IMG/VR virus record: IMGVR_UViG_3300025141_000059
DNA: 20,000 nt
DNA from: an uncultured virus (IMG/VR IMGVR_UViG_3300025141_000059)
Taxonomy: Duplodnaviria > Heunggongvirae > Uroviricota > Caudoviricetes
Strand: one strand, 5' to 3'
Shown here in pieces: positions 3,166 to 20,000 of the stretch (position 1 is its first letter; each line of letters starts with the position of its first letter). Below the pieces are notes generated by a model that was not told the DNA's origin, did no database searches, and saw only the letters and a program-made list of their open reading frames with translations. Position numbers and translations under genes: made by a program.

Positions 3166-6100
3166 TTAAAATATAAGTTCGTCTCCATCCATTACAAGCG
3201 GATCTCCTTCAGAGGTTGCTGGCCCTTCGCCAGGCTCAATCGGTGCCTCAGGCAGTGTAGGCACTCCTGGAAGTCCGCAATCTTCACAGTGCTCTTTCAG
3301 GTATGCAAGATACACATCCAATCTGTTCGTTGTATCTGATGGGATCACCGGTTCTACACATATAGCCCAATGGTCCTCACTTCCTAGCTCTTCAGGATCC
3401 ATTCCTGAGATCGGTTGTCCATTATGAATATATACGTAGAAAAGTTGACTTGGCCCATATTGAACCACGTCGCCCCACTGATAAGCTGTTCCTACATCCC
3501 ACACTAACTCACTTCCAGTAGGTCCTCCTTCAGTCCATCTTTCATTACATGATGCTGGATTGTATTCTCCTGTGATACTATCAGCGCAGTTGTATATGCA
3601 TTCCAGTCCGTTCTGTGAGAGCAGATAATGGATCAGGTGCACGAGTATGAATGTGCTGGCCTTGCAGTCGGTGAGTCTTCCGGTCCTGAGAAGGTTGAAA
3701 TACGTGGTGCCCATGGTACTGAGACACAGTTCTGTGGCATCCATCACCTGCTCCACATCGGATGGTCTGCAGGGCAGTATCTCAAGTTGATATTCACAGG
3801 GTCCTCCTGTTGTGACCGCTCCCTCGGAACCATTCGTTCCTTCCAAAGCTATGTCAACATTGGCGGCCGGTGCGAAATTGGTCGCATGCGGGTCCATGCA
3901 TCCATAGATGATGGGTACCAGGCTGAGTATGTAGTTTTCAGAGCAGCCCGCTCCTGTCACTACGGTCACAAGCCAGATGTCCGTAACATTCACGTCAGAG
4001 CCCACAGGGCTGTTCTCGATGGTCTCCTGGGTCTCCAGGGTCAGATTGTACCAGATCACGGAATAATCGAGCGGTACGTTCGCAAATACGATCGTAGGTG
4101 TTAAGCCTACTACATTTATGGTATCTATGATGGGCTCAGTGCACGGATACACGCATTCCTCTCCGGGTATGGTAGCATTCGGATCGTAGTTCCCTGCAAG
4201 GGGATCCATACATCCTGAAATGGCATAGTAACAGTCCCCAGGCACGTGGTTGGTGACGTTAACATCGTAGTTCGTGGCCGAAGAATCTCCGCATCCGAAA
4301 ACCGGATATGCACAGGATCCATCAGGAACGGTCGCAGCAGGGTTGTAGTTCAAGGCCTCTGTCTCCATACATCCAGATATGGAGGGTGGGGGTGGGGGAG
4401 GCGGTCCAATACAGTTCAGGTCTGCAGCTGTCACTGTCTGGATACTTGTGGAGGTCTCACAGACGGAGTCTCTGAAGTTGACTATGACCTCCAGTACGTC
4501 ACCCTCAGCAACATTGATAGGTGGAGATACCGGTAACCCGTTCACCATATATGTCAAGGTGAAAGGTTCCCCGTCAGTTTCCGCGAAGGCGCTTACCAGA
4601 CCCGTGCAGGCGTCGATGGCAACATCTATCGCTGCAGTACACGGTAATGGTGCAGGTAGTGGTTCCCCGACAAAGAAATAATAGATGCTGTTACAATTCG
4701 CTCCTTGGAGCTGTGCGTTGACCGCGTACCAACCTGTAGGAAGGCCTGTCCAGGCATAGGCAGGATACGCCACACCGAGCTGGCTGTTGACCAGAGTTCC
4801 CAAGACCTCTCCGTTACCTACAGTGTTGTAGATGAAGAGGTCGAATACTCCCCCGTCAAAGACCAGCGGGTCTATTGCAGGATTGGGCTGTGCGTTGAAA
4901 TTGATCACACCATCAGAGGCTCCTATTGTGAGCGTGTTCTCTATCAGTGTATTCACGTCCAGTATAAGGTTCGGTCCAGGACTGTCAGCTATCCACAACT
5001 GGTTTTGGCTGCAATACACACAGCATGCTGCGCAAGGTTCTCCAGCTGCAGCAAAGAAGTTCAGTGCGGTAGGGTCGTCACAGTACTGACGCCCACCTCC
5101 GCCCGCAGACTTGGAAGCGCTCCGCTCTATGATAACGGCTGTAAGTGTTGCAGTAATACCTGACTGCACATTCTCTGCAGTGATGGTGTAGACACCAGGT
5201 CCCGGTGCCAGGCCTGTGAATGTGTGAGTATCTGAGTTTACCGGTCCTATGCTCACCTGCGCACCCAGTCCCGGCGGCGGCGTCATAGTGTAGTTGTATG
5301 TGTAAGTGTTCAGTGCTGGGTATACCGGATACTTTTCCGCCTCGTACGCATCCTTATCTGCAAGAGACTCCCTGGCCGGGGATCCAGGCACTTCAGTAAT
5401 GGTGACCTTGATCTCTCCTGTTCCTTGAACTGGTGCATCTGTGATAGATATCTTAGGACCGAAATGTCTGTAATTGGTCACACAGTCACATCCCTCTTTG
5501 AATATTGAGGGAATTGCCCCTGAGAGGTTCCCGGCCGGAATAGCGACGCCATTACAATCAAGGCCTGTTGTCCTGTAGTAGTCGGCATGCCCCTCTGCTT
5601 TACATACAGAGAACTCCTGTGCCTGTTTGAAATCCTCTTCCGGCAGATCCTTTGACCATATCAAGGTGAACGATGTCTGGAGATCTGTTCCAGAGAGTGC
5701 GTCCACCCACATTTCCTGTGCTGAGTCATAATCCCCACCTACAGTGGAAACGATGTACATTGCCTGTTCCTCCGGTCTTGGATCAACAGTAGGCAGATGT
5801 CCGAGACTGGAAACATCAAGTGTTATTCCGTCACTCTTATATACTCCCTCAAATCCGAACTTGCCTGATGGATCCGATTGGGCCATGAGAGCCTGGTTGG
5901 TCCTTCCTGTATATTTTCCTATTGTCCCTTTAGCATGTGTTACGTATGAATATTCCCCATCCCTTCCTGTAAGAGATATTCCTCCGATAATTCCGAGGTC
6001 TGCAATCCCCTGAGATCTGCCTGGGATGAACAGCGTGAAGAACTCCTGTTCTCCGTTTTCGAATATTACAGTATAATTTCGAGTACCACCATCATCTTCA

Positions 6101-6291
6101 AGATCGCTGTAATAAAGCACTTGAATACCGTCCCATCTATAATCGATGTCGGTCGGCTCACTAGTATGATCTATGATCCTGGCTATCTTAAGACATTCAC
6201 CCTCCCTCGGAGTGGCGAATGACACGACCACCGATCCAACGTCTGTTGATGTCGCTGTGGCAAGTATGAACTTTGGAGCTCCCATTAGCAA
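3166..6291 (-). CDS. Large Cys-rich virion surface protein with GCMDPxAxNY-type repeats, Ig/SprB-like beta domains and a CBM5/12-like module
   Basis: 1041 aa. About five GCxDxxAxN(Y/F) repeats. Beta-sandwich signatures (HTFTGLAPGPGVYTITAEN; AWTGLPTGWYAV), a poly-Pro linker, and WDVGTAYQWGDVVQY near the C-terminus. The start overlaps the upstream gene by 7 nt. Confidence 0.7.
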   Translation of the reverse strand: MLMGAPKFILATATSTDVGSVVVSFATPREGECLKIARIIDHTSEPTDIDYRWDGIQVLYYSDLEDDGGTRNYTVIFENGEQEFFTLFIPGRSQGIADLGIIGGISLTGRDGEYSYVTHAKGTIGKYTGRTNQALMAQSDPSGKFGFEGVYKSDGITLDVSSLGHLPTVDPRPEEQAMYIVSTVGGDYDSAQEMWVDALSGTDLQTSFTLIWSKDLPEEDFKQAQEFSVCKAEGHADYYRTTGLDCNGVAIPAGNLSGAIPSIFKEGCDCVTNYRHFGPKISITDAPVQGTGEIKVTITEVPGSPARESLADKDAYEAEKYPVYPALNTYTYNYTMTPPPGLGAQVSIGPVNSDTHTFTGLAPGPGVYTITAENVQSGITATLTAVIIERSASKSAGGGGRQYCDDPTALNFFAAAGEPCAACCVYCSQNQLWIADSPGPNLILDVNTLIENTLTIGASDGVINFNAQPNPAIDPLVFDGGVFDLFIYNTVGNGEVLGTLVNSQLGVAYPAYAWTGLPTGWYAVNAQLQGANCNSIYYFFVGEPLPAPLPCTAAIDVAIDACTGLVSAFAETDGEPFTLTYMVNGLPVSPPINVAEGDVLEVIVNFRDSVCETSTSIQTVTAADLNCIGPPPPPPPSISGCMETEALNYNPAATVPDGSCAYPVFGCGDSSATNYDVNVTNHVPGDCYYAISGCMDPLAGNYDPNATIPGEECVYPCTEPIIDTINVVGLTPTIVFANVPLDYSVIWYNLTLETQETIENSPVGSDVNVTDIWLVTVVTGAGCSENYILSLVPIIYGCMDPHATNFAPAANVDIALEGTNGSEGAVTTGGPCEYQLEILPCRPSDVEQVMDATELCLSTMGTTYFNLLRTGRLTDCKASTFILVHLIHYLLSQNGLECIYNCADSITGEYNPASCNERWTEGGPTGSELVWDVGTAYQWGDVVQYGPSQLFYVYIHNGQPISGMDPEELGSEDHWAICVEPVIPSDTTNRLDVYLAYLKEHCEDCGLPGVPTLPEAPIEPGEGPATSEGDPLVMDGDELIF
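4141..4380 (-). repeat. Three tandem 26-27-aa Cys repeats (GCMxxxAxNYxPxAxxxxxxCxY); further copies near 3790-3909 and 5010-5088
   Basis: ISGCMETEALNYNPAATVPDGSCAYP / VFGCGDSSATNYDVNVTNHVPGDCYYA / ISGCMDPLAGNYDPNATIPGEECVYP, read directly from the translation. Confidence 0.9.
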
Positions 6292-10068: not shown

Positions 10069-11523
10069 TTACGTAGCGATGCACTGCAGGTCAAGACTTG
10101 TGTCGAATCTACCAAGGCAGATAGCACCGGTCTTAAGCATGTGTACACTTGCTCCGTCAACGTCAGAAGCACGTGATGCTGAGCTGTCGAATCCTTTCGG
10201 AGTAACAGAACCTGCAACACACCATCTAAGGTGTTCACGTCCTTTTTTACTGATCATTCTCAAGTTGCTTACACCATCGTAAGATGATTGGTCAACGAAG
10301 ACCATTCTGTAAGACTCAAGGGAGTACCCAGTCACTGGGTGTAATCCTGCTGCTTCTGCAACCGGACCATGGTCGAACATTGGAAGCTTCACAACATTCA
10401 CAGTATGACCATCAACGTGGTCATAGCGCTTGAAGTATCCAGTAAGACCAAGGCTTCGTCCTGATCCGGTGATGAATCGTGTCTCACCTCCAACTTGCCA
10501 TTGGTTCGCTCCGAAGAAATCTTTCAACGCAGTGTCGAATTCCCGCATTCCACCGGTACCGGTGTAAAGCGTAACACTCTTCTTGTTCGCATCGGTCATT
10601 CCGTAGAACAGGTCTCCGATGATGTTGGTCAACTGCTGCTCAGTAAGCTGAGCGTACGTCTCACGGTTGATGATCTGCTCCAACAGGCCTGGACCGATAA
10701 CAACCGGCTGGCCGTTCTCATCCTTCATGTTGACGACTCCGTCGCCTCCATAGGTACGTTGTCCATACCAGTACAACATCTCGCACTCCTCTTTGAAGGC
10801 AAGCATGTGCTGATACTCTTCGTAGTCCATCCACATCTTAGTGGTAGAGCTTCCTTTGGTAGGAAGTGTGAACTCCGCAACATAGTCCTTAGCATTACCT
10901 GACATATGGTAAGACTTTCTTACTGTGGTCAGTTTGTTCCGGACCTTACCTGGCGCTTGCCAGTTGCTCGCGTTCCCACGAGAGAAGTCAGTCCCAACAG
11001 GTGCAAATAATTGCGCCCAAAGGTCTCCAGCTGTGAAACCGGCCGTTAAGACAGCGGCATTTTCCGGATTTACCAACTGCAGTGTGTAATCCCATCCAGA
11101 ACCACCTACAGCCTCTACCGGCTCCATCATGATACGAGCCTGCTCACCGTTACCGTTCACAAGAACGTATGGGTGAATGAAGAACTTGTCTGGGAATCTC
11201 AACACGAATGTTGATCCTCCCTGTCCCAAGTTTGCGACCGCATTGGTAACATGAAGTGGCCGTGTCATCAGCTTACGCGTCTGAATACGGTACTCATACT
11301 CCAAGCGGTCGATCGACTTGGTATTCTTCAGCCCCTCAGACAAGAATGAAAGCGGGAACCGCATTTCGTCTTTTCCTGAAAGGTGAGTGATTATTGGAGA
11401 CAGCTCTGTCGGTCTCGACAATAATGCATTAGATAGACTGTTCATATCAGTCATCTGGGAGTCGTTGAACAACACCCGCTGTACGCCGATGTTAGTTCCT
11501 CCAATAGGTGTTGTAATTGCCAT
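10069..11523 (-). CDS. Major capsid protein (crAss-like, HK97 fold)
   Basis: 484 aa with motifs I recall from crAss-like MCPs: 'TDMNSLSNALL..P', 'PGKVRNKLTTVRKSY..SGN', 'WMDYEEYQ', 'GPGLLEQI', 'LYTGTGGMREFD', 'H.DGHTV.V...PMFD.G', 'HPVTG..LESYRM.F.D', 'SDVDG.S.H.L...I'. Flanked by a scaffold-like gene and a terminator. Confidence 0.9.
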   Translation of the reverse strand: MAITTPIGGTNIGVQRVLFNDSQMTDMNSLSNALLSRPTELSPIITHLSGKDEMRFPLSFLSEGLKNTKSIDRLEYEYRIQTRKLMTRPLHVTNAVANLGQGGSTFVLRFPDKFFIHPYVLVNGNGEQARIMMEPVEAVGGSGWDYTLQLVNPENAAVLTAGFTAGDLWAQLFAPVGTDFSRGNASNWQAPGKVRNKLTTVRKSYHMSGNAKDYVAEFTLPTKGSSTTKMWMDYEEYQHMLAFKEECEMLYWYGQRTYGGDGVVNMKDENGQPVVIGPGLLEQIINRETYAQLTEQQLTNIIGDLFYGMTDANKKSVTLYTGTGGMREFDTALKDFFGANQWQVGGETRFITGSGRSLGLTGYFKRYDHVDGHTVNVVKLPMFDHGPVAEAAGLHPVTGYSLESYRMVFVDQSSYDGVSNLRMISKKGREHLRWCVAGSVTPKGFDSSASRASDVDGASVHMLKTGAICLGRFDTSLDLQCIAT

Positions 11524-11551: not shown

Positions 11552-12712
11552 TTAGCTTCCCATTTCTTCAAAATCAAATTCGATCTCATCGACAAGTTCT
11601 TTCGTGTCAGACGACGTCCTTCCAGCGCCATCCTTCCCTACTTTGTCCTTGTCTTTTAATCTTGACCTCAAATTCTTAGTAACAGTTGTCCTCGCTTTTG
11701 TAGCGATGAACTTGCTCATGTCGAGGTTCTTGAACATGAGGAAGTCGATAGCCAACTGCTGTTCCAAAGAGGCCTCACTGTGGTCGAAGTCCCGTTGGGT
11801 ATAGCCCTCTTTGGTAATAGGTTTTGTCACGTAGTCCAGAAACTTGGTTCTTTCCTTCCTTGACACCGGAATTCCGGATAATGTCTCATTGTCGTTGACG
11901 ATCTCTCTCACATCTTCCCAGGTCTTCTCAATATCCCTCTGTTGCTGTGCAACGATGGCTTCCTGCTCCTCTCTCAATGCCTGACGTCTTCCCTCCTGCG
12001 CTCTTGTCAGAGCTGTCCTTGCGGCAGTGGCCCTGTTTGCGAGGTGACCCTTATCTTCATAGGTTTCGATCATATCGTTCGCTATGGTAGGATCCTCTCC
12101 TCTTTGCCTAAAGTACTCAGTGAGGATGGCCTTCTGAGCAGCATCATCATCGTCTTTGATCTCAAGTCTTCCGTAGTCGACCTCCTGTCCGTACACCTGG
12201 AAGAACCTATCAACGTCTCCACCATTCTGTACGTGTTGAAAATGTGCTTTGATGGTCGGGTGCCTTTCAAAAATAGCGTCCAACTTCTCATTGGCCATCC
12301 TATCGCCTACATGCTTTGTGAGGTTCGCAATACCTTCTGGGGTATCTTCGAATTCCTCTTCCACTTCATAACCAAGAGTTGTAATGATCTCATTTACTAC
12401 AGTGTTCTCCTTTTCGTCATCATCGTTAAGTGGTCCTGCATCTGCATCGGCCCTTGCCTTTGCAGTTGCTTCTGTCACCCCTACGTCTGGGGTCTCCCCA
12501 CCGTCATCTTCTTTGGGAAGGTCCGTTGGTGAATCGATGTCTTCCAATTTTGGATCCGTTGGTGGTGGATCAACTGGTGATTCATCGATTGCGTCTTTTG
12601 GGTCCGTGCCTTCCGGGGCATCTATTGCCTCTGGGCCTGCAGGTGGATCATCTACGATCCCTCCTTCAAAGTCAAAGTCAAAGTCAGGTATTTCAATTGT
12701 GTCCTTACTCAT
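11552..12712 (-). CDS. Putative capsid scaffolding protein
   Basis: 386 aa with a very acidic, Pro-rich disordered N-terminus, a central Q/E/R coiled coil and a basic C-terminal stretch. It lies immediately upstream of the MCP. Confidence 0.75.
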   Translation of the reverse strand: MSKDTIEIPDFDFDFEGGIVDDPPAGPEAIDAPEGTDPKDAIDESPVDPPPTDPKLEDIDSPTDLPKEDDGGETPDVGVTEATAKARADADAGPLNDDDEKENTVVNEIITTLGYEVEEEFEDTPEGIANLTKHVGDRMANEKLDAIFERHPTIKAHFQHVQNGGDVDRFFQVYGQEVDYGRLEIKDDDDAAQKAILTEYFRQRGEDPTIANDMIETYEDKGHLANRATAARTALTRAQEGRRQALREEQEAIVAQQQRDIEKTWEDVREIVNDNETLSGIPVSRKERTKFLDYVTKPITKEGYTQRDFDHSEASLEQQLAIDFLMFKNLDMSKFIATKARTTVTKNLRSRLKDKDKVGKDGAGRTSSDTKELVDEIEFDFEEMGS

Positions 12713-12846: not shown

Positions 12847-15800
12847 CTATAGCTTCCATCCCTGTGATCCGTTATAATATCCTCCGTATTTGTTGTAACT
12901 GTGTTTCCGTGGCTTCAAAAGATCTTCTCCAAGCGCATTAAGTTTTTCTTTCCATGTACCATTTATTTCATCATATACTTCAATTCGATCCGTAGGGTCA
13001 TACGTGGTTAATGCTCTCTGCTCCTCACTGTTTCCCAGTCTATTCATTCTTGCCCTCATCTTCTCATTGATGGCATTGAATGCTCCTTCAGGCGGTTCCT
13101 TTCCAACCTTCTTGTACATCTCATTCCATCTGGCCAACTCTTTATTATAGTGCTTCATTACCACGTCATCTTTAAATGGAGATGAACCTTGATAAAGCTT
13201 GTCCATTCCTTTTATATCAGATCTCTCAATGGGATTGAATGAACTGAAAATATCATTCTTCAGATCTGCAGGGTACTTTTCCAGATTCTTCAAATACCTT
13301 ACAGTTTCCGATAGGGTCTGGTCAGGACCGAATTCCTTATTCAGAATCCTGAGCACATCTTCATCCAGAATATTCCTGTCCATCATTAATTCTGCCCGTC
13401 TCTTTTCAAATGCTGAAGGAAAATTGAGTGGTTTTAAAGCAGGAGTGCTTCCAAAGGACGCCTTTACCCCAAGCTGATCTCTCAATGGAGCGGTCTTATC
13501 AGACATTCCTCTTTCCACCATGTCTCTACCCATTTTATTCAAGGCATCCAAATGCTCAGGAGATTTTGGTTTTTTTCCAAATATATCTCCAAGAAGATCA
13601 CCGAGTCCTTCAGGAGGAAGACCTGCAGCCTCACGAGCAGCTTCTGCCGCCATGTCATCAGATGTAGGGTAATGTTGAATATGATCGTCTAAGAACTTTT
13701 CTTTTGTAATTCCTTCTTCTAATATATCATCCCACATCTGTGGGTATTCATTTCTTCCCTCGGGCATCTTTCCTTCCAGTGACCTGTTCAATCCCCTGTA
13801 ATTCATATCCCTGTACGCTTGCATCGGAGTCTTCATATTCGCTAATCTATTCCCTGCATATCTTGCTCCTGCTCCAAGTCCTGCTCCTATCATTCCTGCT
13901 CCCATCTCCCAAGTGGCACCTTCCACCATACTGTTTCCTCTTCCTTTCCATCCTTTTCTTCCAGCGTCAAGTTCTTCCTGAGAGGGTCCTTCCAATGTGA
14001 ACATGGTTCTTGGAAGAAGTGCTGCCTTTGTTCCTGCATCATGAAAGGTTCTTGCCACTTTCTCAGTTCCTGACAATGGTATATTCAAGGGAGATGCTCC
14101 AGGTCCATATCCAGCTTCACGTATCCCTCTTCCTGCCCATGGTTCCAGAGGCTGGATCTCTTCAAGTTCTCCCAGAGGTCGAGGCATAGCTACACCAGTG
14201 CTTTCAGCCGGACCCCCGTTCTGCATCATCTTCTTTTCCCACCAAGTTCCACCGTTACGCATTTTCGGTTTAGTTGGTTTTATTTTCTTATCAAGGTAAT
14301 CAGTTATCTCCTGTATATTGAACATCGCTCCATACAGGCCAGCTGTAGCGGTTCCTGCGCCAGTAGCTGTAATTATATCTTTATTCCTGTCGAACTTATG
14401 TTTCAATGACGTCTTCCCTGTTCTTTCAGCTACAATGTCTGGAAGATGAACACGTCTGTCGATCATCTTTGCATTAGGAATGTCCGCTCCTGTATTCACA
14501 CGGAGTCTTTCAAGATACTTGTTCGCCATTTCCAAGGTCTCCTCTGACCCCCCTCCTTCTGGAACGAATTTCTTTCCAGAACTGTTCATTGGATTGAATG
14601 CTCCTGTATGACTTATATTGAAGTCACCTTTTCTTACTGCAGATCCAAGTTTTGGATAGAGAAGTCTAAAGGAGTCTGAAGACAATGATTGTTCGCTGAA
14701 TCTATTTCCGGCACCCAAAACCCCTTCCTCTATATCCTTTGCTTTTGAGTGAGCCGCAGTCGGAGATACGCCGAACATTGAGTGGGCATCAGAATCTCCA
14801 GGAAGCTTGTTTTGAGAGTTGTAAAAAAGAGCCTTTGGAGATAATTTACCTTTTTGATATGCTTGTTTTAGCGGTAAGATAAGGTTCCTTTTTGGATCTT
14901 TAATAGCGCCATGAAATTTTTGAATAGGGCTTCTTCTAGCAAGATACGACCTTGGTGGTCCCAATGTACTGCTGAGGAAATCTCTCATGGCTGCATCGTC
15001 AATTCTCCCAACGATGTTTGGATCGATACCATCTGCATAGAATTGGAGGCCCTGTAAGTAGTCTTCGGATTCTACTGCGTCTCGAATATCAAGTTCCTGG
15101 CTCATTCTTCGCATGTTTTCTCGATCAACAATCGCGTTGTGATCATCGACAGTCATCACATCCATTTCGGCATCAAGATCGTGGCTTCGCATCTCAACCG
15201 CGTTTGAACGTTCGTAGTATGCATCCATTCTCTTTTGAGTCTCACCGCCTTTCATTTGTCTAGGCTGAAGCCCTTCTTCTGCGGCTGCATCAAAGAAGTC
15301 AGCTCTATCTCCAGAGTTCTGCGCGACTTCGTCTAGAATCCTTTCTTGTCCCTTGGTATAGCCTCTTCTTCCATTATAAATCCTCTTCGCTCCTTTGTAC
15401 ATTCCATATCCTACAAATGGAAGGGCTGCAGCTCCTGCTGCGATACCTACGGTTCCCCAGTCCCTGTCCTTAATTGCTTTTACAAGATGCATGACATCTC
15501 TGGCATCTCCGTATCCAGGAGCGAAGTCTGCGGAACTATTGATAACGTCAGCAGCACTTTCCATATTCTCTCTTGCAGCATATGCTATAGGGTCGTGTTT
15601 CTGACTCCAGTTACGTACTGCTGTAGGATTGGTCCTGTCCAGAGTATCTTCCACCTTAACCTCTGGTAGCATGTGTCCCCATGCTGGGCCTGCGTTATAC
15701 GCTGTAGAAGGGATGTGTTCAGGTGCACCATCTTGATACTTAGGAAGTTCTCCACCTGTTTGATACTTAGGTAGAGATCCTCCGTATTCATATGGCAAAC

Positions 15801-18800
15801 CTTGTACTCCTTGAATTTTTTTAGCAGTAGAACCTTTTTTAGGTTTTGCAGGTTTTTCATACTGCTGTATTCTATCCATTGTACTATTAAACTTAGCCCA
15901 TTCTGGTTTTTTATCAAAACCGCTTACAGGTTTAGCCATAGATTTAGCTACTAAAGGTTGAGCTACTGGCTGTGTTGGTTTTTTAAAGAGATAATTATAG
16001 TCCTTGTACGATTGCATAGTTACACCTTGAGGTTTTATTTTACTCTCTTTGATGTATTTAGGGTCCTCAAAAACAAAATCATCATCGTAACCTTTACTTC
16101 TTTGCGCACTAACGTGTTCAGGACTAGCTATATAAAGAGATTCTCCAGTGTCAAATATTTTATAAGCCCCTCCTTTGGTATTAAATTTTTCATTCTCTTT
16201 TAAAATAAGATCATAAGGATACTTTGAAGGGTCAGCACTATTACTTCTTGCTATATCACGGTAAAATTGCTTATGCTGTTCATAAAGATTTAAACTGTCA
16301 TTATAATCATTATAAGCTTGTTCTCTTTTTTTAAACTCTTCTTCTCTTTTTTTAAACTCTTCAGGATCTGATATGTATTTTACATCACCTCCATCCTGAT
16401 ATTCTGGAAGTTGTCCTCCACCTTGAAACTTAGGTAGAGATCCTCCGCTTTCTAAAAACCGTACATTTCTATACATACCACCTTTATTTCTAGGATATCT
16501 TCTTCTACTGTTTTTTCTATCTTCTCTTTTTTCTCTTCTGGCTTCTTTTCTTTCTAACCTTTCCATCTCTTTTCCCAATCCAATAGTTCCAAGACCAATC
16601 ATGGGTTCATCCCGAGGATTTCCACGTTCTCTTTCTGATATAAACATTTGATTAACTTCTTCAGGGCTAAAAAAATCATATAAACCTCCCATATTATTTA
16701 AATCATACTGCTGCAATCTTTCAGAATTACTTATTACATTTTTAGGTGTTCCCTCCTGATACTGAGGTAAGTATCCTCCGTCTTGAAATTCAAATGTTTT
16801 TGCTTCTGTTTTACCAGGAATACTATCGGGAGTAGTATGTATTTCGACAATTCCTTCGTGTCTACCGAAAGGACTTGAAAAGGAAGGAGGACTAATATTA
16901 ATACTTTTAATTTTATTTGTCAGTGTACTTGGAGAATCAAAAGGATTACTCACATCATATACACTATCAAGATTAGCAGCAACAAGTCTAAGTTCGTCGA
17001 GTGAAAGCCCAGTAGGGTCATCAAAAACATTTTCAATTCTATATGATACAGGGTCCTCTTCATAATAAATCTTATTTCCTTCATCATCCAACTCCGCCCC
17101 TTGTATTGCTTCTAGATCACTTTCTTGTGCATCTTTATACCAATTTAAAGACAGGGCTTTCGGAGTATTTCCATTTTTACTTAATACCATCGGGGTCGAC
17201 CATGTTCTTTCGTCATCCCAATTCTCAGAGGCAAACCCCATTTCTTCAGCAGGAAAATTCTCAAAATTCTGAAGATCGTGCTTAGTATTGAGCAAAGGCA
17301 TAGTTGAATAGGGCTCCTCTAACGTCCAAGTCTGTTTAATATGCTCTTCAAGTTGTTCTCTAGACATATTTGCATAAGGAGCAGCAGGTGCTGGGGATAT
17401 ATAAGGCCTAGGTGTTACTGGTGTAGCTATACTTGAGGAGTTATATGTGCTTGGAATAGCAGATACCGGTTGATCCACCGACGTCCACCTCTGAGGCCAC
17501 AGCGTTTGGTTTTTATCCGAAGCAAGTTCAGTTGTATATCTTTTCCCTTCATAAGTAAACTCTTTTTCTCCAGCAGCTCTTGCCTGTCTGAATGCTTCTC
17601 CACGAGTCATAGTTTTTTCTACAGGTCTCTGTTCAAATCCCATGACTGGTTCAGCCATAGTAGTTCTTGCTTTAAGTTCAGGAGTAGTATCTAAGTTCCA
17701 ATTTCTTACAATAACAGAATCAGAATATCCTGATTCTCTTAATTGATTGTAAGAGTATTTTTTACCATCAGTATGCATAAGATTTACAGCATCTCTATCT
17801 CCTTGCCATCCTTTTACAGGACCTCCATCCTGATATTTAGGAAGCTGTCCTCCGTCTCTAAATTCAGTTAAAGGAGTTGTGCGATTATTTCCACCAAATT
17901 CAGGCTTCTTAGTAGTTGATATTCTCTTATTATTCTTATCATAATAAATTCTACCATATATATCAAAAGGGTTAAACAGTAGTCTTTCAGACATATCTCC
18001 TATCTTTTCAAGTAGTTTATTTAAACGACCATCTTTATCAATCTCTCTATGTTTTTCATATTCCATGATATTATCAATAGAACTTCTTATACCTAATACT
18101 CGTTTAGCAATTCGTTCAGGGTCTAAATCCCAACGATCTTTATATTCAAGGTAAAAACCTCCATCTTTAGTATTTACTTTATTAACTGAATGTCGTCCAA
18201 ATGTATAATCTCCAAAAGGTTTAACACCACTTGCTCTACCATCAGCAACAGCTGCTTTCTTTAAGTCTGGGTCGTCCTTTAAAGTAGCAGTTAAATCATC
18301 AGGAAATTCATCCTCATAACCTTTTAATTGAAAAGTACCTTCTTGATAAGGCGATGGTTCAAATATATTTTTACCTACTTGCTCTTCACCAAGATACTTT
18401 CTAAAAGCATTGGATTCCGCCTCGGCTGCTCCGCTAAATACGGAGTAGCTGTTGGCAGCAGTTCTGGGTTTAGGATAGATCATTTGATCTCTAAAGTCTT
18501 GAAAATCAAGATTATATCCTGTGAAAGTATCAATATTAGATATATTCTTCCGCCAATTTAGAGGGTTTAAATCTCTTCTTTCTTGTTTCTTCTTTTGTTG
18601 CTCCTGCGCCCGTATTTCAGGAACAGCCATTGTTTTAGTCTCTTCTTCATGCTGTAATTGATTTTCTTCAAACTTTCTTCCGTTTTGATACTTAGGTAAT
18701 GAGCCTCCGTCTCTATATTCTAAACCTTGTACTCCTGGACCTCCTCCGGTTGCATATTGCGGAAGACCGGCCGAGGTCATCTGTCGGTTCTGTACGATCT

Positions 18801-20000
18801 TCATGATAGCTCCCTCAAGTGAGATGTCTCCTGCTTGGAGTTCCGGATCATTGATCAGCTCCTGCAACTCTTCCTGAATGAGCTCCGTACCCATCTCTGC
18901 AGCTGCTTCCTGGATCTGGTCCATGCTCTCTCCAGGGATGATGGATTGCGACGCGTTACCTGCCTCTGCAACTTCTTCGTTGGTCTTCTTTATCTCGTTG
19001 ATGATACTATTGATACCATCTTCGATCTCAATGGGCTGTATCTCACTGATAGGTTTGAGGTTCTCAATTCCATTCTGGACGGTACTGACAGTGTCTCCCA
19101 CTGCTCCCTTTGCACTCTCTATTCCGGCCTCAATCACTCCCGTAGCCTGATCGAGTTCATCCATACCCTCCATGATATTGCCCTCGACAAAGCTCAGTGC
19201 CAGGATAAAGTCAGCATAATCCTCGCCCATGTAACGGATCCTGTCGATCCTCTCCACAGCCCCGTCGAGTTTCTTTTTTGTCTCAGGAACACCGTCCCTC
19301 AGGAGATCCAGGGTTTCCAGGGCCGTGTATCTGGCCTCAGGGACCGCATTCCTTGGAGCAGCGATCATATCCTTGGCCGTATTATCCAGAACCTCTCCGG
19401 TTTTGGACGCCAGAGTGTATGGTTCCCTGTAATCGTAATTGACACGGCTGTCCTTTAGATGTGCCTCCATCATGGCGTCGTGATCTATGTTCAGTGAAGA
19501 CGAATAGTCAGCAACGAAGTTCGTATACGAGACCCCCTCAGGAGTATTCGGCATCTCCTTGATGTGAATATTGCGGAACATCTCTATCCCTTCAGCAATA
19601 CTCTCTCTTGAGAATCCCTTCTTGTTGGTGAAGTCATTCCTGATCATATTGTCGATCCCCTTATTATGGGCCAGGGACAGAATGTTCCGTTTGGTGATGT
19701 CATCCTCCTCAGTGAACTGGTCTCCGAGCATCTGCTCCAAAAGGGTGTAGTTCCTGGCGGTGTTCAACATGGTCGCTGCAGCCGATATCCGCGGGTCGTA
19801 GATGGAATTGTGGTCCACTCCGTATCGGTCGAGTAGATCTCTGTCCGCCTGGCCTTCGAAGTTCCCTTCCAACTTGATCTGTGATGGGCCCTCACTGAAC
19901 GGGTCAGTATTCAGACGTCCCTTGAACAACTCACCGAATGTCTGTTTGTAGCTCCGAATGATGTTCCGCGGGTATTCTCTTTTTCTTACGTACCCTTCCC
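12847..20000 (-). CDS. Giant modular (polyprotein-like) protein, >2380 aa, 5'-truncated; putative virion cargo/effector array
   Basis: The frame stays open beyond the track's TTG at 19929 to the window edge (..EGYVRKREYPRNIIRSYKQTFGEL..), so the true start is outside the window. About seven dissimilar modules are separated by recurrent xxGG linkers. It ends in TAG, followed by ACA TAA. Confidence 0.85.
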   Translation of the reverse strand, partial: EGYVRKREYPRNIIRSYKQTFGELFKGRLNTDPFSEGPSQIKLEGNFEGQADRDLLDRYGVDHNSIYDPRISAAATMLNTARNYTLLEQMLGDQFTEEDDITKRNILSLAHNKGIDNMIRNDFTNKKGFSRESIAEGIEMFRNIHIKEMPNTPEGVSYTNFVADYSSSLNIDHDAMMEAHLKDSRVNYDYREPYTLASKTGEVLDNTAKDMIAAPRNAVPEARYTALETLDLLRDGVPETKKKLDGAVERIDRIRYMGEDYADFILALSFVEGNIMEGMDELDQATGVIEAGIESAKGAVGDTVSTVQNGIENLKPISEIQPIEIEDGINSIINEIKKTNEEVAEAGNASQSIIPGESMDQIQEAAAEMGTELIQEELQELINDPELQAGDISLEGAIMKIVQNRQMTSAGLPQYATGGGPGVQGLEYRDGGSLPKYQNGRKFEENQLQHEEETKTMAVPEIRAQEQQKKKQERRDLNPLNWRKNISNIDTFTGYNLDFQDFRDQMIYPKPRTAANSYSVFSGAAEAESNAFRKYLGEEQVGKNIFEPSPYQEGTFQLKGYEDEFPDDLTATLKDDPDLKKAAVADGRASGVKPFGDYTFGRHSVNKVNTKDGGFYLEYKDRWDLDPERIAKRVLGIRSSIDNIMEYEKHREIDKDGRLNKLLEKIGDMSERLLFNPFDIYGRIYYDKNNKRISTTKKPEFGGNNRTTPLTEFRDGGQLPKYQDGGPVKGWQGDRDAVNLMHTDGKKYSYNQLRESGYSDSVIVRNWNLDTTPELKARTTMAEPVMGFEQRPVEKTMTRGEAFRQARAAGEKEFTYEGKRYTTELASDKNQTLWPQRWTSVDQPVSAIPSTYNSSSIATPVTPRPYISPAPAAPYANMSREQLEEHIKQTWTLEEPYSTMPLLNTKHDLQNFENFPAEEMGFASENWDDERTWSTPMVLSKNGNTPKALSLNWYKDAQESDLEAIQGAELDDEGNKIYYEEDPVSYRIENVFDDPTGLSLDELRLVAANLDSVYDVSNPFDSPSTLTNKIKSINISPPSFSSPFGRHEGIVEIHTTPDSIPGKTEAKTFEFQDGGYLPQYQEGTPKNVISNSERLQQYDLNNMGGLYDFFSPEEVNQMFISERERGNPRDEPMIGLGTIGLGKEMERLERKEARREKREDRKNSRRRYPRNKGGMYRNVRFLESGGSLPKFQGGGQLPEYQDGGDVKYISDPEEFKKREEEFKKREQAYNDYNDSLNLYEQHKQFYRDIARSNSADPSKYPYDLILKENEKFNTKGGAYKIFDTGESLYIASPEHVSAQRSKGYDDDFVFEDPKYIKESKIKPQGVTMQSYKDYNYLFKKPTQPVAQPLVAKSMAKPVSGFDKKPEWAKFNSTMDRIQQYEKPAKPKKGSTAKKIQGVQGLPYEYGGSLPKYQTGGELPKYQDGAPEHIPSTAYNAGPAWGHMLPEVKVEDTLDRTNPTAVRNWSQKHDPIAYAARENMESAADVINSSADFAPGYGDARDVMHLVKAIKDRDWGTVGIAAGAAALPFVGYGMYKGAKRIYNGRRGYTKGQERILDEVAQNSGDRADFFDAAAEEGLQPRQMKGGETQKRMDAYYERSNAVEMRSHDLDAEMDVMTVDDHNAIVDRENMRRMSQELDIRDAVESEDYLQGLQFYADGIDPNIVGRIDDAAMRDFLSSTLGPPRSYLARRSPIQKFHGAIKDPKRNLILPLKQAYQKGKLSPKALFYNSQNKLPGDSDAHSMFGVSPTAAHSKAKDIEEGVLGAGNRFSEQSLSSDSFRLLYPKLGSAVRKGDFNISHTGAFNPMNSSGKKFVPEGGGSEETLEMANKYLERLRVNTGADIPNAKMIDRRVHLPDIVAERTGKTSLKHKFDRNKDIITATGAGTATAGLYGAMFNIQEITDYLDKKIKPTKPKMRNGGTWWEKKMMQNGGPAESTGVAMPRPLGELEEIQPLEPWAGRGIREAGYGPGASPLNIPLSGTEKVARTFHDAGTKAALLPRTMFTLEGPSQEELDAGRKGWKGRGNSMVEGATWEMGAGMIGAGLGAGARYAGNRLANMKTPMQAYRDMNYRGLNRSLEGKMPEGRNEYPQMWDDILEEGITKEKFLDDHIQHYPTSDDMAAEAAREAAGLPPEGLGDLLGDIFGKKPKSPEHLDALNKMGRDMVERGMSDKTAPLRDQLGVKASFGSTPALKPLNFPSAFEKRRAELMMDRNILDEDVLRILNKEFGPDQTLSETVRYLKNLEKYPADLKNDIFSSFNPIERSDIKGMDKLYQGSSPFKDDVVMKHYNKELARWNEMYKKVGKEPPEGAFNAINEKMRARMNRLGNSEEQRALTTYDPTDRIEVYDEINGTWKEKLNALGEDLLKPRKHSYNKYGGYYNGSQGWKL
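14212..14271 (-). repeat. Degenerate linker: KPKMRNGG-TWWEKK-MMQNGG
   Basis: Two MxNGG copies in the translation, separating the last two modules. Confidence 0.6.
15728..15810 (-). repeat. Linker repeat GVQGLPYEYGG-SLPKYQTGG-ELPKYQDG; left direct repeat of the AT-rich block
   Basis: TTGATACTTAGG occurs at 15733 and 15760 (27-bp period). 15760-15810 matches 18685-18735 at 42 of 51 positions by hand alignment. Confidence 0.9.
16321..16362. repeat. Perfect 21-bp tandem duplication (EEFKKRE x2)
   Basis: TTCTCTTTTTTTAAACTCTTC at 16321-16341 and 16342-16362. Confidence 0.9.
16387..16458 (-). repeat. Linker repeat FLESGG-SLPKFQGGG-QLPEYQDGG
   Basis: Read from the translation. The DNA shares CTTAGGTAGAGATCCTCCG with the 15766-15784 copy. 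Confidence 0.9.
16751..16791 (-). repeat. Linker repeat EFQDGG-YLPQYQEG
   Basis: Read from the translation. Confidence 0.85.
17821..17865 (-). repeat. Linker repeat EFRDGG-QLPKYQDGG
   Basis: Read from the translation. The DNA ACCTCCATCCTGATATT is shared with 16387-16403. Confidence 0.9.
18680..18768 (-). repeat. Linker repeat GLPQYATGGG-PGVQGLEYRDGG-SLPKYQNG; right direct repeat of the AT-rich block
   Basis: Read from the translation. 18685-18735 is the partner of 15760-15810. Confidence 0.9.

What the first reader, a model, noticed from the sequence alone, without database searches (positions are those of the whole stretch)
12847..20000. Giant phage protein built as an in-frame cassette array joined by a conserved di-glycine linker (candidate polyprotein cargo system)
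Seen: six internal junctions (about 18680-18768, 17821-17865, 16751-16791, 16387-16458, 15728-15810, 14212-14271) carry 2-3 tandem copies of a 9-aa unit xLP(K/Q/E)(Y/F)QxGG or its core (Y/F/M)xxGG. The protein also ends near YNKYGG. These junctions divide it into modules of roughly >400, 270, 340, 100, 190, 490 and 440 aa with little similarity to each other, a repeat-spacer layout at protein scale. The gene lies directly upstream of scaffold and MCP. Known: GG-X sites are cleaved in viral maturation (adenovirus protease (M/L/I)xGG-X, ASFV pS273R polyprotein processing), and phages package and inject head cargo. Inference: the linker is a protease site and/or capsid-packaging tag and also a recombination handle. 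The phage would then load a variable set of effector domains into the head from one gene.
Basis: partly seen in the sequence, partly recalled or inferred. Interest (0 to 1): 0.88.

Follow-up and report, generated by a model that had tools for sequence, protein, structure and literature searches.

The report
Junction-tagged mosaic phage cargo protein
A crAss-like phage encodes a 2,781-residue protein made of unrelated, swappable modules joined by one short conserved glycine-flanked peptide; the same peptide marks other proteins that such phages carry in their particles, so it is probably a hinge or loading tag, and cutting at it has not been shown.

Summary
The minus-strand ORF 12847->20000 holds the last 2,383 codons of a 2,781-codon gene. 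The full length is seen in L049, which is 99.97% identical in DNA. The gene lies between the portal gene and a gp31-like gene plus a crAss-type capsid gene.

Six junctions carry 2-3 tandem copies of aromatic-x-x-G-G-x-L-P-K-Y-Q-x-G-G (7 LPx[YF]Q against 0.03 in shuffles). The same peptide marks module borders and chain ends in a large mosaic protein family of crAss-like phages, including gp45-type (C1) cargo proteins.

Cassette turnover at the junctions is shown:
- A relative with an 80%-identical capsid protein shares only 121 + 141 aa of the giant protein.
- Two sister phages differ by a two-module, ~450-aa block bounded by junctions.
- Inside this ORF, GC3 drops from ~0.6 to ~0.2 at junction 1 and rises again at junction 5.

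Packaging into the virion is inferred. Cleavage at GG is not supported. No peptidase family was found in a 97%-complete relative. In crAss001 gp45 the matching copy (AFGGWLNTQGG, 425-435) lies uncut inside the cryo-EM-resolved portal-bound segment.

I favour an uncut hinge or docking tag that also serves as a recombination joint. The scan has noted this motif before on other DNA (at least 7 notes). My searches found no paper describing it.

The parts
12847..20000 (-). 3' 2,383 codons plus stop of the giant mosaic gene. The full gene is 2,781 codons; its first 398 lie beyond the window end.
   Evidence: Full length from L049:8807-17152, 99.87% aa identity over 2,383 aa.
18766..19998 (-). Module M1 (fragment residues 1-411). 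It is the distal part of a conserved N-terminal block. The motif order KES...SEGxxQIK...AHNKG resembles a lytic transglycosylase, but this is unconfirmed. GC3 is 0.62.
   Evidence: 27-32% identity to P0003 and P0006; alignment A1. No PDB, Pfam or hhalign support. GC3.
18676..18765 (-). Junction L1: LPQYATGGGPGVQGLEYRDGGSLPKYQNGR (3 units). GC3 drops from ~0.57 to ~0.20 here.
17899..18675 (-). Module M2 (442-700). No relative found. GC3 is 0.20.
17818..17898 (-). Junction L2: FGGNNRTTPLTEFRDGGQLPKYQDGGP (3 units)
16801..17817 (-). Module M3 (728-1066). It is shared as a whole with P0002 (69% identity, 716-1083 against 12-392). Its first 121 aa are shared with P0004 (83% identity).
16744..16800 (-). 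Junction L3: KTFEFQDGGYLPQYQEGTP (2 units)
16459..16743 (-). Module M4 (1086-1180). Basic (23% K+R), with no relative found.
16384..16458 (-). Junction L4: FLESGGSLPKFQGGGQLPEYQDGGD (3 units)
   Evidence: AF2 coil with pLDDT < 50.
15805..16383 (-). Module M5 (1206-1398). It is found in other mosaic proteins (P0008 at 68% identity, also P0026, P0033, P0040). GC3 is 0.18.
15724..15804 (-). Junction L5: QGLPYEYGGSLPKYQTGGELPKYQDGA (3 units). GC3 rises from ~0.10 to ~0.38 here.
   Evidence: AF2 coil with pLDDT < 50.
15355..15723 (-). Sub-module M6a (1426-1548). It is the most widely shared cassette (LDRTNPxAVRNWS...) and ends in a Gly/Ala-rich hydrophobic stretch at 1515-1533 (nt 15400-15456).
14275..14961 (-). 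Sub-module M6c (1680-1908). A conserved alpha/beta domain (invariant SLS.DS) followed by a second hydrophobic stretch at 1875-1893 (nt 14320-14376). Its fold is unassigned.
14209..14274 (-). Junction L6: TKPKMRNGGTWWEKKMMQNGGP (2 core units). An xxNGG unit lies at the same aligned place in 5 of the 13 M6c-bearing proteins aligned.
12850..14208 (-). Module M7 (1931-2383). An orphan: the only match was a fragment identical to itself.
   Evidence: ESM Atlas gave leads only.
12880..12897 (-). C-terminal core unit YNKYGG, 10 residues before the stop
11552..12712 (-). 386-aa acidic, helix-rich protein between the giant gene and the capsid gene. It is gp31-like and possibly a scaffold (inferred).
   Evidence: (24.8% identity to crAss001 gp31 over 113 aa, E 4e-4). 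gp31 is not named in the virion atlas.
10069..11523 (-). crAss-type major capsid protein
   Evidence: Pfam PF23898, 1.1e-74; phrog_11589, 1.8e-81

Best explanation
The ORF is most of a 2,781-residue mosaic protein of an environmental crAss-like phage, encoded between the portal gene and the capsid gene. It is most likely carried inside the particle and expelled into the host envelope at infection.

Its architecture:
- It starts with a basic leader bearing one junction core (MSKKKFQLGG).
- Next comes a conserved head block that looks like two cell-wall hydrolases: one NlpC/P60-like and one lytic-transglycosylase-like.
- Then follows a string of at least eight unrelated modules, two of which end in hydrophobic Gly/Ala-rich stretches.

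The modules are joined by 1-3 copies of one peptide: aromatic-x-x-G-G-x-L-P-K-Y-Q-x-G-G.

The peptide has two roles:
- At the DNA level its repeats are the joints where cassettes are gained, lost and swapped between phages. This is shown.
- At the protein level it is kept by selection as a recognised element shared with the gp45-type cargo proteins. It is most likely an uncut flexible hinge or docking tag that marks a chain for loading, and lets the modules unfold and thread one by one through portal and tail. This is inferred.
For: Phage and locus:
- The capsid protein matches Crass_capsid at 1e-74 and a ring protein is present.
- L049, the same phage at 99.97% DNA identity, shows the order TerL, portal, 131-aa protein, giant gene, 386-aa protein, capsid protein.
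- Three related records share this order.

The motif is real: 7 against 0.03 expected, with differing codons between copies.

Turnover at the junctions:
- The window and L002 have capsid proteins 80% identical and ring proteins 62% identical. Their giant proteins share only 121 aa at 83% and 141 aa at 35%.
- P0001 716-1083 equals P0002 12-392, running from linker to linker.
- Among 298 HSPs in 53 family proteins, 30% of endpoints lie within 10 aa of a motif or terminus, against 8% on random placement.
- L033 (1,809 aa) and L043 (1,328 aa) are 80% and 72% identical on the two flanks. They differ by two modules bounded by junctions at 973, 1152 and 1430, against a single hybrid junction at 956. 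The three L033 junctions share about 20 nt of near-identical DNA.
- GC3 is 0.62 in M1, 0.18-0.24 in M2-M5 and 0.34-0.44 in M6-M7, with the breaks at L1 and L5.

Link to cargo:
- A DNA scan of IMG/VR for GGxLPKYQxG found 29 loci, 27 of them with the motif in an open frame.
- In 5 of 5 and again 5 of 5 records searched, the LPKYQ pattern occurred and its reversed control did not. Where the DNA was fetched, the copies lay in the giant gene or in the gene block after the tail genes.
- In L042 a 739-aa protein follows a crAss_MUZ gene (1e-172). It has crAss_CARG1 (2e-13) at 268-374, flanked by QMAMGG and MRTGGGLPKYD.
- In relative G001 the motif density is 7.0 and 6.4 per 1,000 aa in the giant and C1-position proteins, against 0.72 in the other 59 proteins.
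- In crAss001 gp45 the copies YGG 208-210, AFGGWLNTQGG 425-435 and FAYGG 559-563 bracket the two pieces seen by cryo-EM (214-245 in the tail barrel, 425-552 on the portal). Sources; PMC10172136, sections 7 and 10.

Envelope-directed content in the family:
- SLT domains in P0002, P0009 and P0022.
- Amidase_2 in P0006, Phage_lysozyme in P0041, and LysM next to a junction in L032.
- Two hydrophobic stretches in M6.

Copies at chain ends:
- N-terminal: MSKKKFQLGG, MKYKKLLPKYQLG, MQTGGSLPKYQ.
- C-terminal: GGLHRYQ*, GGWLDKYN*.
- These fit a tag better than a mere spacer.

Junctions L4, L5 and L6 fall in coil with pLDDT < 50 in the two AF2 models, and no predicted domain spans them.
Against: - There is no proteomic or structural evidence that this protein is in the virion.
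- It has no crAss_CARG1 domain at E <= 1, and it does not sit in the usual cargo block after the muzzle gene.
- No module of this protein has a Pfam, PHROG or PDB match.
- The hydrolase reading of the head block rests on motif order seen by eye and on ESM Atlas leads of 0.79-0.83. A PDB profile search and hhalign against a true SLT module failed.
- No binding partner for the peptide is identified.
- The AF2 models are of low confidence (mean pLDDT 61 and 47.5), so 'unstructured linker' is weakly shown.
- The uncut copy is in a distant phage with a degenerate form of the motif.
- A cultured Flavobacterium crAss-like phage (FpV4) has neither the giant gene nor the motif in its cargo-position proteins. 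The tag is therefore not universal.
- The HSP endpoint statistic counts non-independent pairs, and the conserved motif can itself extend or stop an alignment.
Confidence: 0.55

Rival explanations
1. The protein is a polyprotein. A phage or co-packaged protease cuts after Gly-Gly at each junction, during head maturation or after injection, and so releases separate effector domains.
For: - The core aromatic-x-x-G-G-x resembles GG-X processing sites (adenain, ASFV pS273R, double-glycine leaders; recalled, not from a call).
- Tandem copies would give redundancy.
- Copies at extreme N- and C-termini would behave like removable pro-peptides.
- Genes that start or end inside the motif suggest that separate products are tolerated.
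- HExxH zincin-like motifs occur once each in 11 of 53 family proteins, against 0.55 expected. One also occurs in a 2,668-aa cargo-block protein of relative G001. This fits the self-processing idea for polyvalent proteins in PMC5512222 (passages read).
- The head block of this protein is NlpC/P60-like, which is a papain-type fold (lead only).
Against: - No peptidase family appeared at E <= 0.01 among the ORFs scanned from the 97%-complete relative G001 (51, 11, others).
- There is no HExxH in the 2,781-aa protein, and 42 of the 53 family proteins lack one.
- The gp45 copy at 425-435 is continuous in the resolved crAss001 density (PMC10172136).
- crAss001 virion gels show bands of 150, 270 and >300 kDa, so its giant cargo proteins are not broadly fragmented. 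These proteins lack the motif, so this is weak evidence (PMC6235969, methods passage).
- A cut site would not need LPKYQ conserved on the C-terminal side of GG.
Confidence: 0.22
2. The peptide is only a flexible spacer. It looks conserved because the cassettes spread together with their flanking linker DNA, so it is a recombination handle and has no protein-level partner.
For: - Indels and swaps occur exactly at the linkers.
- Within one phage the linkers share about 20 nt of near-identical DNA.
- The linkers are Gly/Pro-rich (16-28% Gly against 4-10% in the modules) and are predicted as coil.
Against: - Codons differ between copies while the residues are kept.
- The peptide is kept in phages whose capsid proteins are only about 30% identical, down to a recognisable copy in crAss001 gp45.
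- It stands at chain termini, where no spacer is needed.
- It is absent from the other multi-domain proteins of the same genomes.
Confidence: 0.12
3. The protein is not internal cargo. It is instead an external or assembly component, for example a fibre, a decoration or a tape-measure-like ruler, or a lysis-phase wall hydrolase.
For: - It lies in the head module rather than in the cargo block.
- Related family members carry wall hydrolases that could also act at lysis.
- There is no direct evidence of packaging.
Against: - It shares its junction peptide with CARG1-bearing C1 cargo proteins.
- Its content turns over almost completely between phages with 80%-identical capsids, which is unlike a ruler or a structural fibre.
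- The relative G001 has a separate holin and amidase pair for lysis.
- It has no repeats or coiled-coil ruler features.
Confidence: 0.06

Closest known systems
Cargo protein C1 (gp45) of Bacteroides phage crAss001 (Pfam PF25725 crAss_CARG1; PMC10172136)
   Same: - It carries the same junction peptide. In an environmental C1 the CARG1 domain is flanked by it.
- gp45 itself has AFGGWLNTQGG at the start of the portal-bound piece, and aromatic-GG units before and after the resolved pieces.
- It has hydrophobic stretches and a beads-on-a-string build.
   Different: - This protein has no CARG1 domain.
- It is three times longer.
- It lies between the portal and capsid genes, not after the muzzle gene.
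- It shares no module with gp45.
Phage-type polyvalent proteins (Iyer, Burroughs, Anand, de Souza, Aravind 2017, PMC5512222; abstract and passages read)
   Same: - One giant polypeptide of many unrelated domains.
- It is encoded beside virion genes, and lysozyme-type domains occur in the family.
- It is presumed to be packaged and delivered with the DNA.
- A relative's genome also has a protein with a weak ART-PolyVal match.
   Different: - That paper's text has no occurrence of 'linker' and names no junction peptide.
- Its hallmark zincin peptidase is absent from this protein.
- None of its named domain families was detected here.
Capsid targeting sequence of phage T4 internal proteins (recalled; no call)
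   Same: A short peptide at the N-terminus of proteins that are loaded into the head. Here a junction core stands at residues 6-10 of the full protein and near the start of many relatives.
   Different: - The T4 signal is N-terminal only and is removed by the prohead protease at a different consensus.
- Here the peptide is mostly internal and tandem, no prohead protease was found, and one copy is seen uncut.
Ejection proteins of podoviruses with wall-degrading domains (T7 gp16, P22 gp16/gp20/gp7; named in PMC10172136, section 11 passages)
   Same: - Large internal proteins expelled before the DNA.
- A wall hydrolase sits at the N-terminus, and there are membrane-active segments.
- An ESM Atlas lead points to a P22 gp16-like cluster at 0.89 for M7 (lead only).
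   Different: - No sequence or fold match was found.
- Those proteins are not cassette arrays and have no junction peptide.
GG-X polyprotein processing (adenovirus protease, ASFV pS273R; recalled)
   Same: A hydrophobic-x-G-G-x core recurs between functional units.
   Different: - No clan CE or CA protease was detected.
- The conserved part extends C-terminal of GG.
- The one copy with structural data is uncut.

Membership tests
Crassvirus cargo protein 1 (gp45; Pfam PF25725) | crAss_CARG1 portal-binding domain | tested here: not met
   No hit at E <= 0.01 on the whole fragment or at E <= 1 on each module. No hit on the N-terminal 810 aa of the full protein.
Crassvirus cargo protein 1 (gp45; Pfam PF25725) | Gene directly after the muzzle gene, ahead of the virion RNA polymerase genes | tested here: not met
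   The gene lies between the portal gene (plus a 131-aa ORF) and the gp31-like and capsid genes.
Crassvirus cargo protein 1 (gp45; Pfam PF25725) | Present in virions and partly threaded through the portal | not testable with these tools
   This needs proteomics or cryo-EM of this phage.
Phage-type polyvalent proteins (PMC5512222) | Many unrelated domains in one polypeptide of a phage, encoded next to virion genes | tested here: met
   At least 9 modules with no mutual similarity. The portal and capsid genes flank the gene.
Phage-type polyvalent proteins (PMC5512222) | Zincin-like metallopeptidase (HExxH) or other hallmark domains of that study | tested here: not met
   No HExxH in 2,781 aa and no Pfam hit. 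In the wider family, 11 of 53 proteins have HExxH.
Phage-type polyvalent proteins (PMC5512222) | Packaged and delivered with the DNA | not testable with these tools
   Inferred only, from the shared junction peptide and the gene context.
GG-X processed viral polyprotein | Recurrent hydrophobic-x-G-G-x sites between units | tested here: met
   11 [YFM]xxGG against 1.9 expected, clustered at six junctions.
GG-X processed viral polyprotein | Cognate protease encoded by the virus | tested here: inconclusive
   No peptidase family was found among the G001 ORFs. The rest of this phage's genome was not available to me. The NlpC/P60-like head block is only a lead.
GG-X processed viral polyprotein | Cleavage products observed | not testable with these tools
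   The only related datum is that the gp45 copy at 425-435 is continuous in the resolved density (PMC10172136).
Lytic transglycosylase (Pfam SLT) for module M1 | SLT domain match with a catalytic Glu-Ser | tested here: inconclusive
   The order KES...SEGPSQIK...AHNKG is seen in the sequence. There was no Pfam hit, no PDB profile hit, and hhalign to the SLT module of P0002 gave probability 0.1.
NlpC/P60 / CHAP peptidase for the N-terminal block (outside the window) | Cys-His catalytic pair in the family's fold | tested here: inconclusive
   ECSGG...THVGV...THN is seen in L049. ESM Atlas clusters with NLPC_P60 or CHAP score 0.79-0.83, which are leads only. There was no Pfam hit.

The most novel reading that the evidence does not exclude
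The junction peptide is a portable 'cargo code' of crAss-like phages. A conserved virion part recognises the short tag. Candidates are the SH3-like wing loops of the portal that interdigitate with gp45, or the lumen of the tail barrel. Any module flanked by tags would then be loaded into the head, held in a set order, and fed unfolded through the tail. Because the tag is also the recombination joint, phages could trade injected effector modules freely. That would make it a natural plug-and-play protein delivery system.
Probability: 0.25. Interest if true: 0.85.

Novelty: new variant of a known kind. Interest (0 to 1): 0.64.

Why it matters
How tailed phages choose which proteins to load into the head, and in what order these leave, is poorly understood outside T4 and P22. 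For crassviruses the structural atlas left most of the cargo unresolved.

A short peptide shared by the giant mosaic proteins and the gp45-type cargo makes this question testable. The peptide sits at every module border and at chain ends. It can be mutated, fused to a reporter, or sought in the existing crAss001 model.

It also explains how these phages renew their injected repertoire. Whole modules move between genomes at the junctions, as this ORF shows by a 2.9-kb block of foreign codon composition. If the tag suffices for loading, it would also be a handle for sorting phage dark-matter proteins into 'injected' and 'not injected'.

Tried and rejected
Searches that found nothing or did not help:
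- tblastn of the whole fragment against 50,697 phage records: no match.
- The search for related loci with P0001 and P0005 in IMG/VR: none.
- Exact 49-nt search for the window's own contig in IMG/VR and in the metagenome contigs: none. A protein-based scan later found L049.
- No whole genome is held for the window, and L049's record could not be searched whole. The rest of this phage, including its cargo block and any protease, was therefore not seen.
- Pfam and PHROGs on the whole protein and on each module: no family at the thresholds used.
- PDB sequence searches: only chance-level rows.
- hhalign of the M1 alignment against the SLT-bearing P0002: probability 0.1.

Structure work:
- AF2 of M6c gave mean pLDDT 61. 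Foldseek against the PDB gave no match at E <= 0.001, and VIA-align wide gave a best Z of 4.4. No fold was assigned.
- AF2 of L4-M5-L5-M6a gave mean pLDDT 47.5, too weak for a fold search.
- Structure prediction was not ready and was used later.
- Complex prediction (junction peptide with the portal of L002) was not available, and nothing was folded.
- The ESM Atlas gave only leads below 0.9 for named families.

Ideas rejected:
- A portal fusion: the portal is a separate 771-aa gene.
The gaps hold only one 21-aa ORF without the motif.
- The motif as a general crAss feature: the cultured FpV4 lacks it.

Literature:
- The 'LPKYQ' search returned only unrelated papers.
- 'Crassvirales' + 'polyvalent protein' returned none.
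- The crAss + cargo + gp45 search returned only the atlas and an N4-like phage paper.
- The Crassvirales + cargo + motif terms returned nothing relevant.
- Subscription journals and supplements were not searched.
Full report
**What is in the window.** All large ORFs are on the minus strand. In transcription order they are:
- an open-ended frame of 2,383 aa (12847->19998)
- a 386-aa acidic protein
- a 484-aa protein matching Pfam Crass_capsid at 1.1e-74 and phrog_11589 at 1.8e-81
- a 310-aa protein
- a 384-aa protein with a weak crAss ring 3/4 match
- five further proteins

The capsid protein is about 30% identical to those of gut crassviruses. This is therefore a distant, environmental crAss-like phage.

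A protein-guided scan of metagenome contigs found L049, whose DNA is 99.97% identical to the window over 11,233 bp. In L049 the giant gene is 2,781 codons, so the window lacks the first 398. The order there is TerL (699 aa), portal (771 aa), a 131-aa ORF, the giant gene, the 386-aa gene, then the capsid gene. Three related IMG/VR records have the same order, with giant genes of 1,870, 1,809 and 1,328 codons. Gut crassviruses and the cultured Flavobacterium phage FpV4 have no such gene between portal and capsid.

**The observation.** Against 2,000 shuffles:
- LPx[YF]Q occurs 7 times against a mean of 0.03.
- [YFM]xxGG occurs 11 times against 1.9.
- Plain GG is not enriched (20 against 15.6).

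The copies use different synonymous codons. The modules between the junctions show no similarity to each other at E <= 10. The C-terminus carries YNKYGG. The full protein also begins with a basic leader and a core unit, MSKKKFQLGG. Pooled over 18 family proteins (237 GG sites), the consensus is aromatic/Met - Q/K/R - x - G - G - x - L - P - K - Y - Q - x - G - G.

**It is a cassette array, and the junctions are the joints.** Word-seeded and exhaustive searches found 5 and 37 relatives. Each shares only single modules with this protein:
- M3 as a whole with P0002 (69%; 716-1083 against 12-392, linker to linker).
- The first 121 aa of M3 with P0004 (83%).
- M5 with P0008 (68%).
- The small M6a cassette with some twenty proteins.
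- M6c with a dozen others.
- M2, M4 and M7 with none.

The window and L002 have capsid proteins 80% identical and ring proteins 62% identical. Their giant proteins share only 121 + 141 aa.

Across 298 pairwise matches among 53 family proteins, 30% of match ends lie within 10 aa of a motif or a chain end, against 8% for random placement. The pairs are not independent, and the conserved motif itself can end an alignment.

The clearest case is a natural indel. The giant proteins of L033 and L043 are 80% and 72% identical on either side. L033 has two extra modules bounded by junctions at 973, 1152 and 1430. L043 has one hybrid junction at 956, whose left side matches the first L033 junction and whose right side matches the third. 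The three L033 junctions share about 20 nt of near-identical DNA.

Inside the window's own ORF the third-position GC differs by module:
- 0.62 in M1
- 0.18-0.24 in M2-M5
- 0.34-0.44 in M6a-M7

The drop falls between residues 400 and 440 (L1) and the rise between 1400 and 1440 (L5). A 2.9-kb block of four modules thus looks imported from a lower-GC phage through two junctions.

**The peptide belongs to cargo proteins.** A degenerate DNA pattern for GGxLPKYQxG hit 29 IMG/VR loci, and 27 of them have it in an open frame. In ten records searched whole, LPKYQ occurred in all ten and its reversed control in none. Three of the five records tested hold a crAss capsid match, two of them above the cut-off.

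Besides the giant gene, the copies lie in the block after the tail genes. In L042 a crAss_MUZ protein (1.2e-172) is followed by a 739-aa protein. Its crAss_CARG1 domain (2.1e-13, residues 268-374) is bracketed by QMAMGG (262) and MRTGGGLPKYD (382), and another copy stands at 134. In L032 a junction directly precedes a LysM domain.

In the 97%-complete relative G001, sites per 1,000 aa were:
- 7.0 in the giant protein
- 6.4 in the C1-position protein
- 0.72 in the other 59 proteins

In crAss001 gp45 I find YGG at 208-210, AFGGWLNTQGG at 425-435 and FAYGG at 559-563. The atlas paper reports residues 214-245 bound in the tail barrel and 425-552 bound to the portal wing (PMC10172136, sections 7 and 10 read). 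The motif therefore brackets both resolved pieces, and one full copy lies inside the resolved chain.

**What the protein probably does.** Pfam-recognisable domains in the family are all envelope-directed:
- SLT in 3 proteins
- Amidase_2, Phage_lysozyme, LysM and a weak PG_binding_1

The conserved head block of this protein is shared at 31-35% with L033, L043 and P0003. It shows ECSGG...THVGV...THN and then KES...SEGPSQIK...AHNKG. That reads like an NlpC/P60-type peptidase followed by a lytic transglycosylase, but the support is thin. ESM Atlas leads of 0.79-0.83 back the first, and every profile test of the second failed.

M6a and M6c each end in a Gly/Ala-rich hydrophobic stretch. M6c is a conserved alpha/beta domain with invariant SLS.DS, and no fold match was found.

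Together with the position beside the portal gene, this fits a protein that is packed in the head, opens the wall, and inserts in the membrane ahead of the DNA. Packaging itself is inferred, not shown.

**What the junction peptide does.** Three readings remain.

1. *A cut site.* For it:
   - The core resembles GG-X sites.
   - The copies at chain ends look like pro-peptides.
   - 11 of 53 family proteins carry one HExxH each, against 0.55 expected. So does a 2,668-aa cargo-block protein of G001. This matches the self-processing proposal for polyvalent proteins (PMC5512222, passages read).

   Against it:
   - No peptidase family appeared among the G001 ORFs.
   - This protein has no HExxH.
   - The gp45 copy is uncut in the mature crAss001 virion.

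2. *A passive spacer carried along by recombination.* The codon differences argue against it. So do the conservation down to crAss001, the copies at chain termini, and the absence from other multi-domain proteins of the same genomes.

3. *An uncut hinge or docking tag.* This fits all of the above. The two AF2 models add that L4, L5 and L6 lie in coil with pLDDT < 50 and that no domain spans them. The models are weak, and no partner is known. I could not test binding because the complex predictor was not available.

I give the hinge or docking-tag reading about 0.55, cleavage 0.22, a passive spacer 0.12, and 'not cargo' 0.06.

**Comparison with what is known.** The build matches the phage-type polyvalent proteins of Iyer et al. 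2017. It lacks their hallmark peptidase, however, and their text names no junction peptide. It works like crAss001 C1 and like the podovirus ejection proteins. It is not a member of the CARG1 family, because the domain test failed. The N-terminal copy recalls the T4 capsid targeting sequence (recalled, not from a call).

**Novelty.** My searches for the motif string, for Crassvirales with polyvalent proteins, and for cargo with motif terms found no description. Subscription journals and supplements were not covered.

The scan's own earlier notes report the same junction motif in crAss-like cargo proteins on at least seven other windows. This window adds four things:
- the full-length head-module giant gene
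- the linker-bounded indel
- the composition breaks at L1 and L5
- the uncut copy in the crAss001 structure

I rate it a new variant of a known kind.

Noticed in passing
L039:5107-5496 (+), and the same ORF in L003, L007, L008, L010, L016, L022, L029, L030: A 130-aa protein starts MNSKDLDPMKQPFGGMLPKYQNGG. Its later part (…VVDGIEPVLLSRDEYVIPADVV) resembles the core of the CARG1 region by eye. In L039 it directly follows a 724-aa gene (contig 53% complete). No capsid match was found in that record. It may be a minimal tagged portal-binding protein in another phage group.
   Followed up: partly
L045:9251-17254 (-), record G001: A 2,668-aa protein in the RNA-polymerase or cargo block of the relative has an HExxH (…LYHEGFHNV…) and a weak ART-PolyVal match (3.9e-6; 28 bits, below the 31-bit cut-off). 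It is possibly a second polyvalent cargo protein with a peptidase and an ADP-ribosyltransferase.
   Followed up: partly
L044:1352-1702 (+) and L045:3305-4156 (+), record G001: The relative encodes a 117-aa SET-domain protein (Pfam SET, 3.4e-8) and a spore-photoproduct-lyase-like radical SAM protein (9e-25). Both are unusual for a crAss-like phage.
   Followed up: no
window 3166-6291 (-): A 1,041-aa protein is 32% identical to a 1,029-aa protein of L002, which has a weak match to the T9SS C-terminal sorting domain (Por_Secre_tail, 0.003). It may be a tail fibre or spike that borrows a Bacteroidota secretion-tail fold.
   Followed up: no
window 504-1994 (-): The C-terminal 157 aa of a 496-aa protein match phrog_8270 (8.8e-17; unknown function). 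It has no junction motif.
   Followed up: no
L040:8570-14560 (-): In this giant protein the junction has a longer form that repeats six times: GGxLP(K/x)YQ(x)(S/A)xxxI. Examples are GGSLPKYQVSPTSI and GGDLPMYQRLSDRI. This suggests lineage-specific extensions of the tag.
   Followed up: no
P0015, P0027, P0042; L037:5260-9069 (-): A variant unit, GGWL(D/N/S)KY, stands at the very start (MDWLNKY, MGWLDKY) or the very end (GGWLDKYN*, NSWLSKYE*) of several family proteins. It looks as if the genes were split inside a junction.
   Followed up: partly
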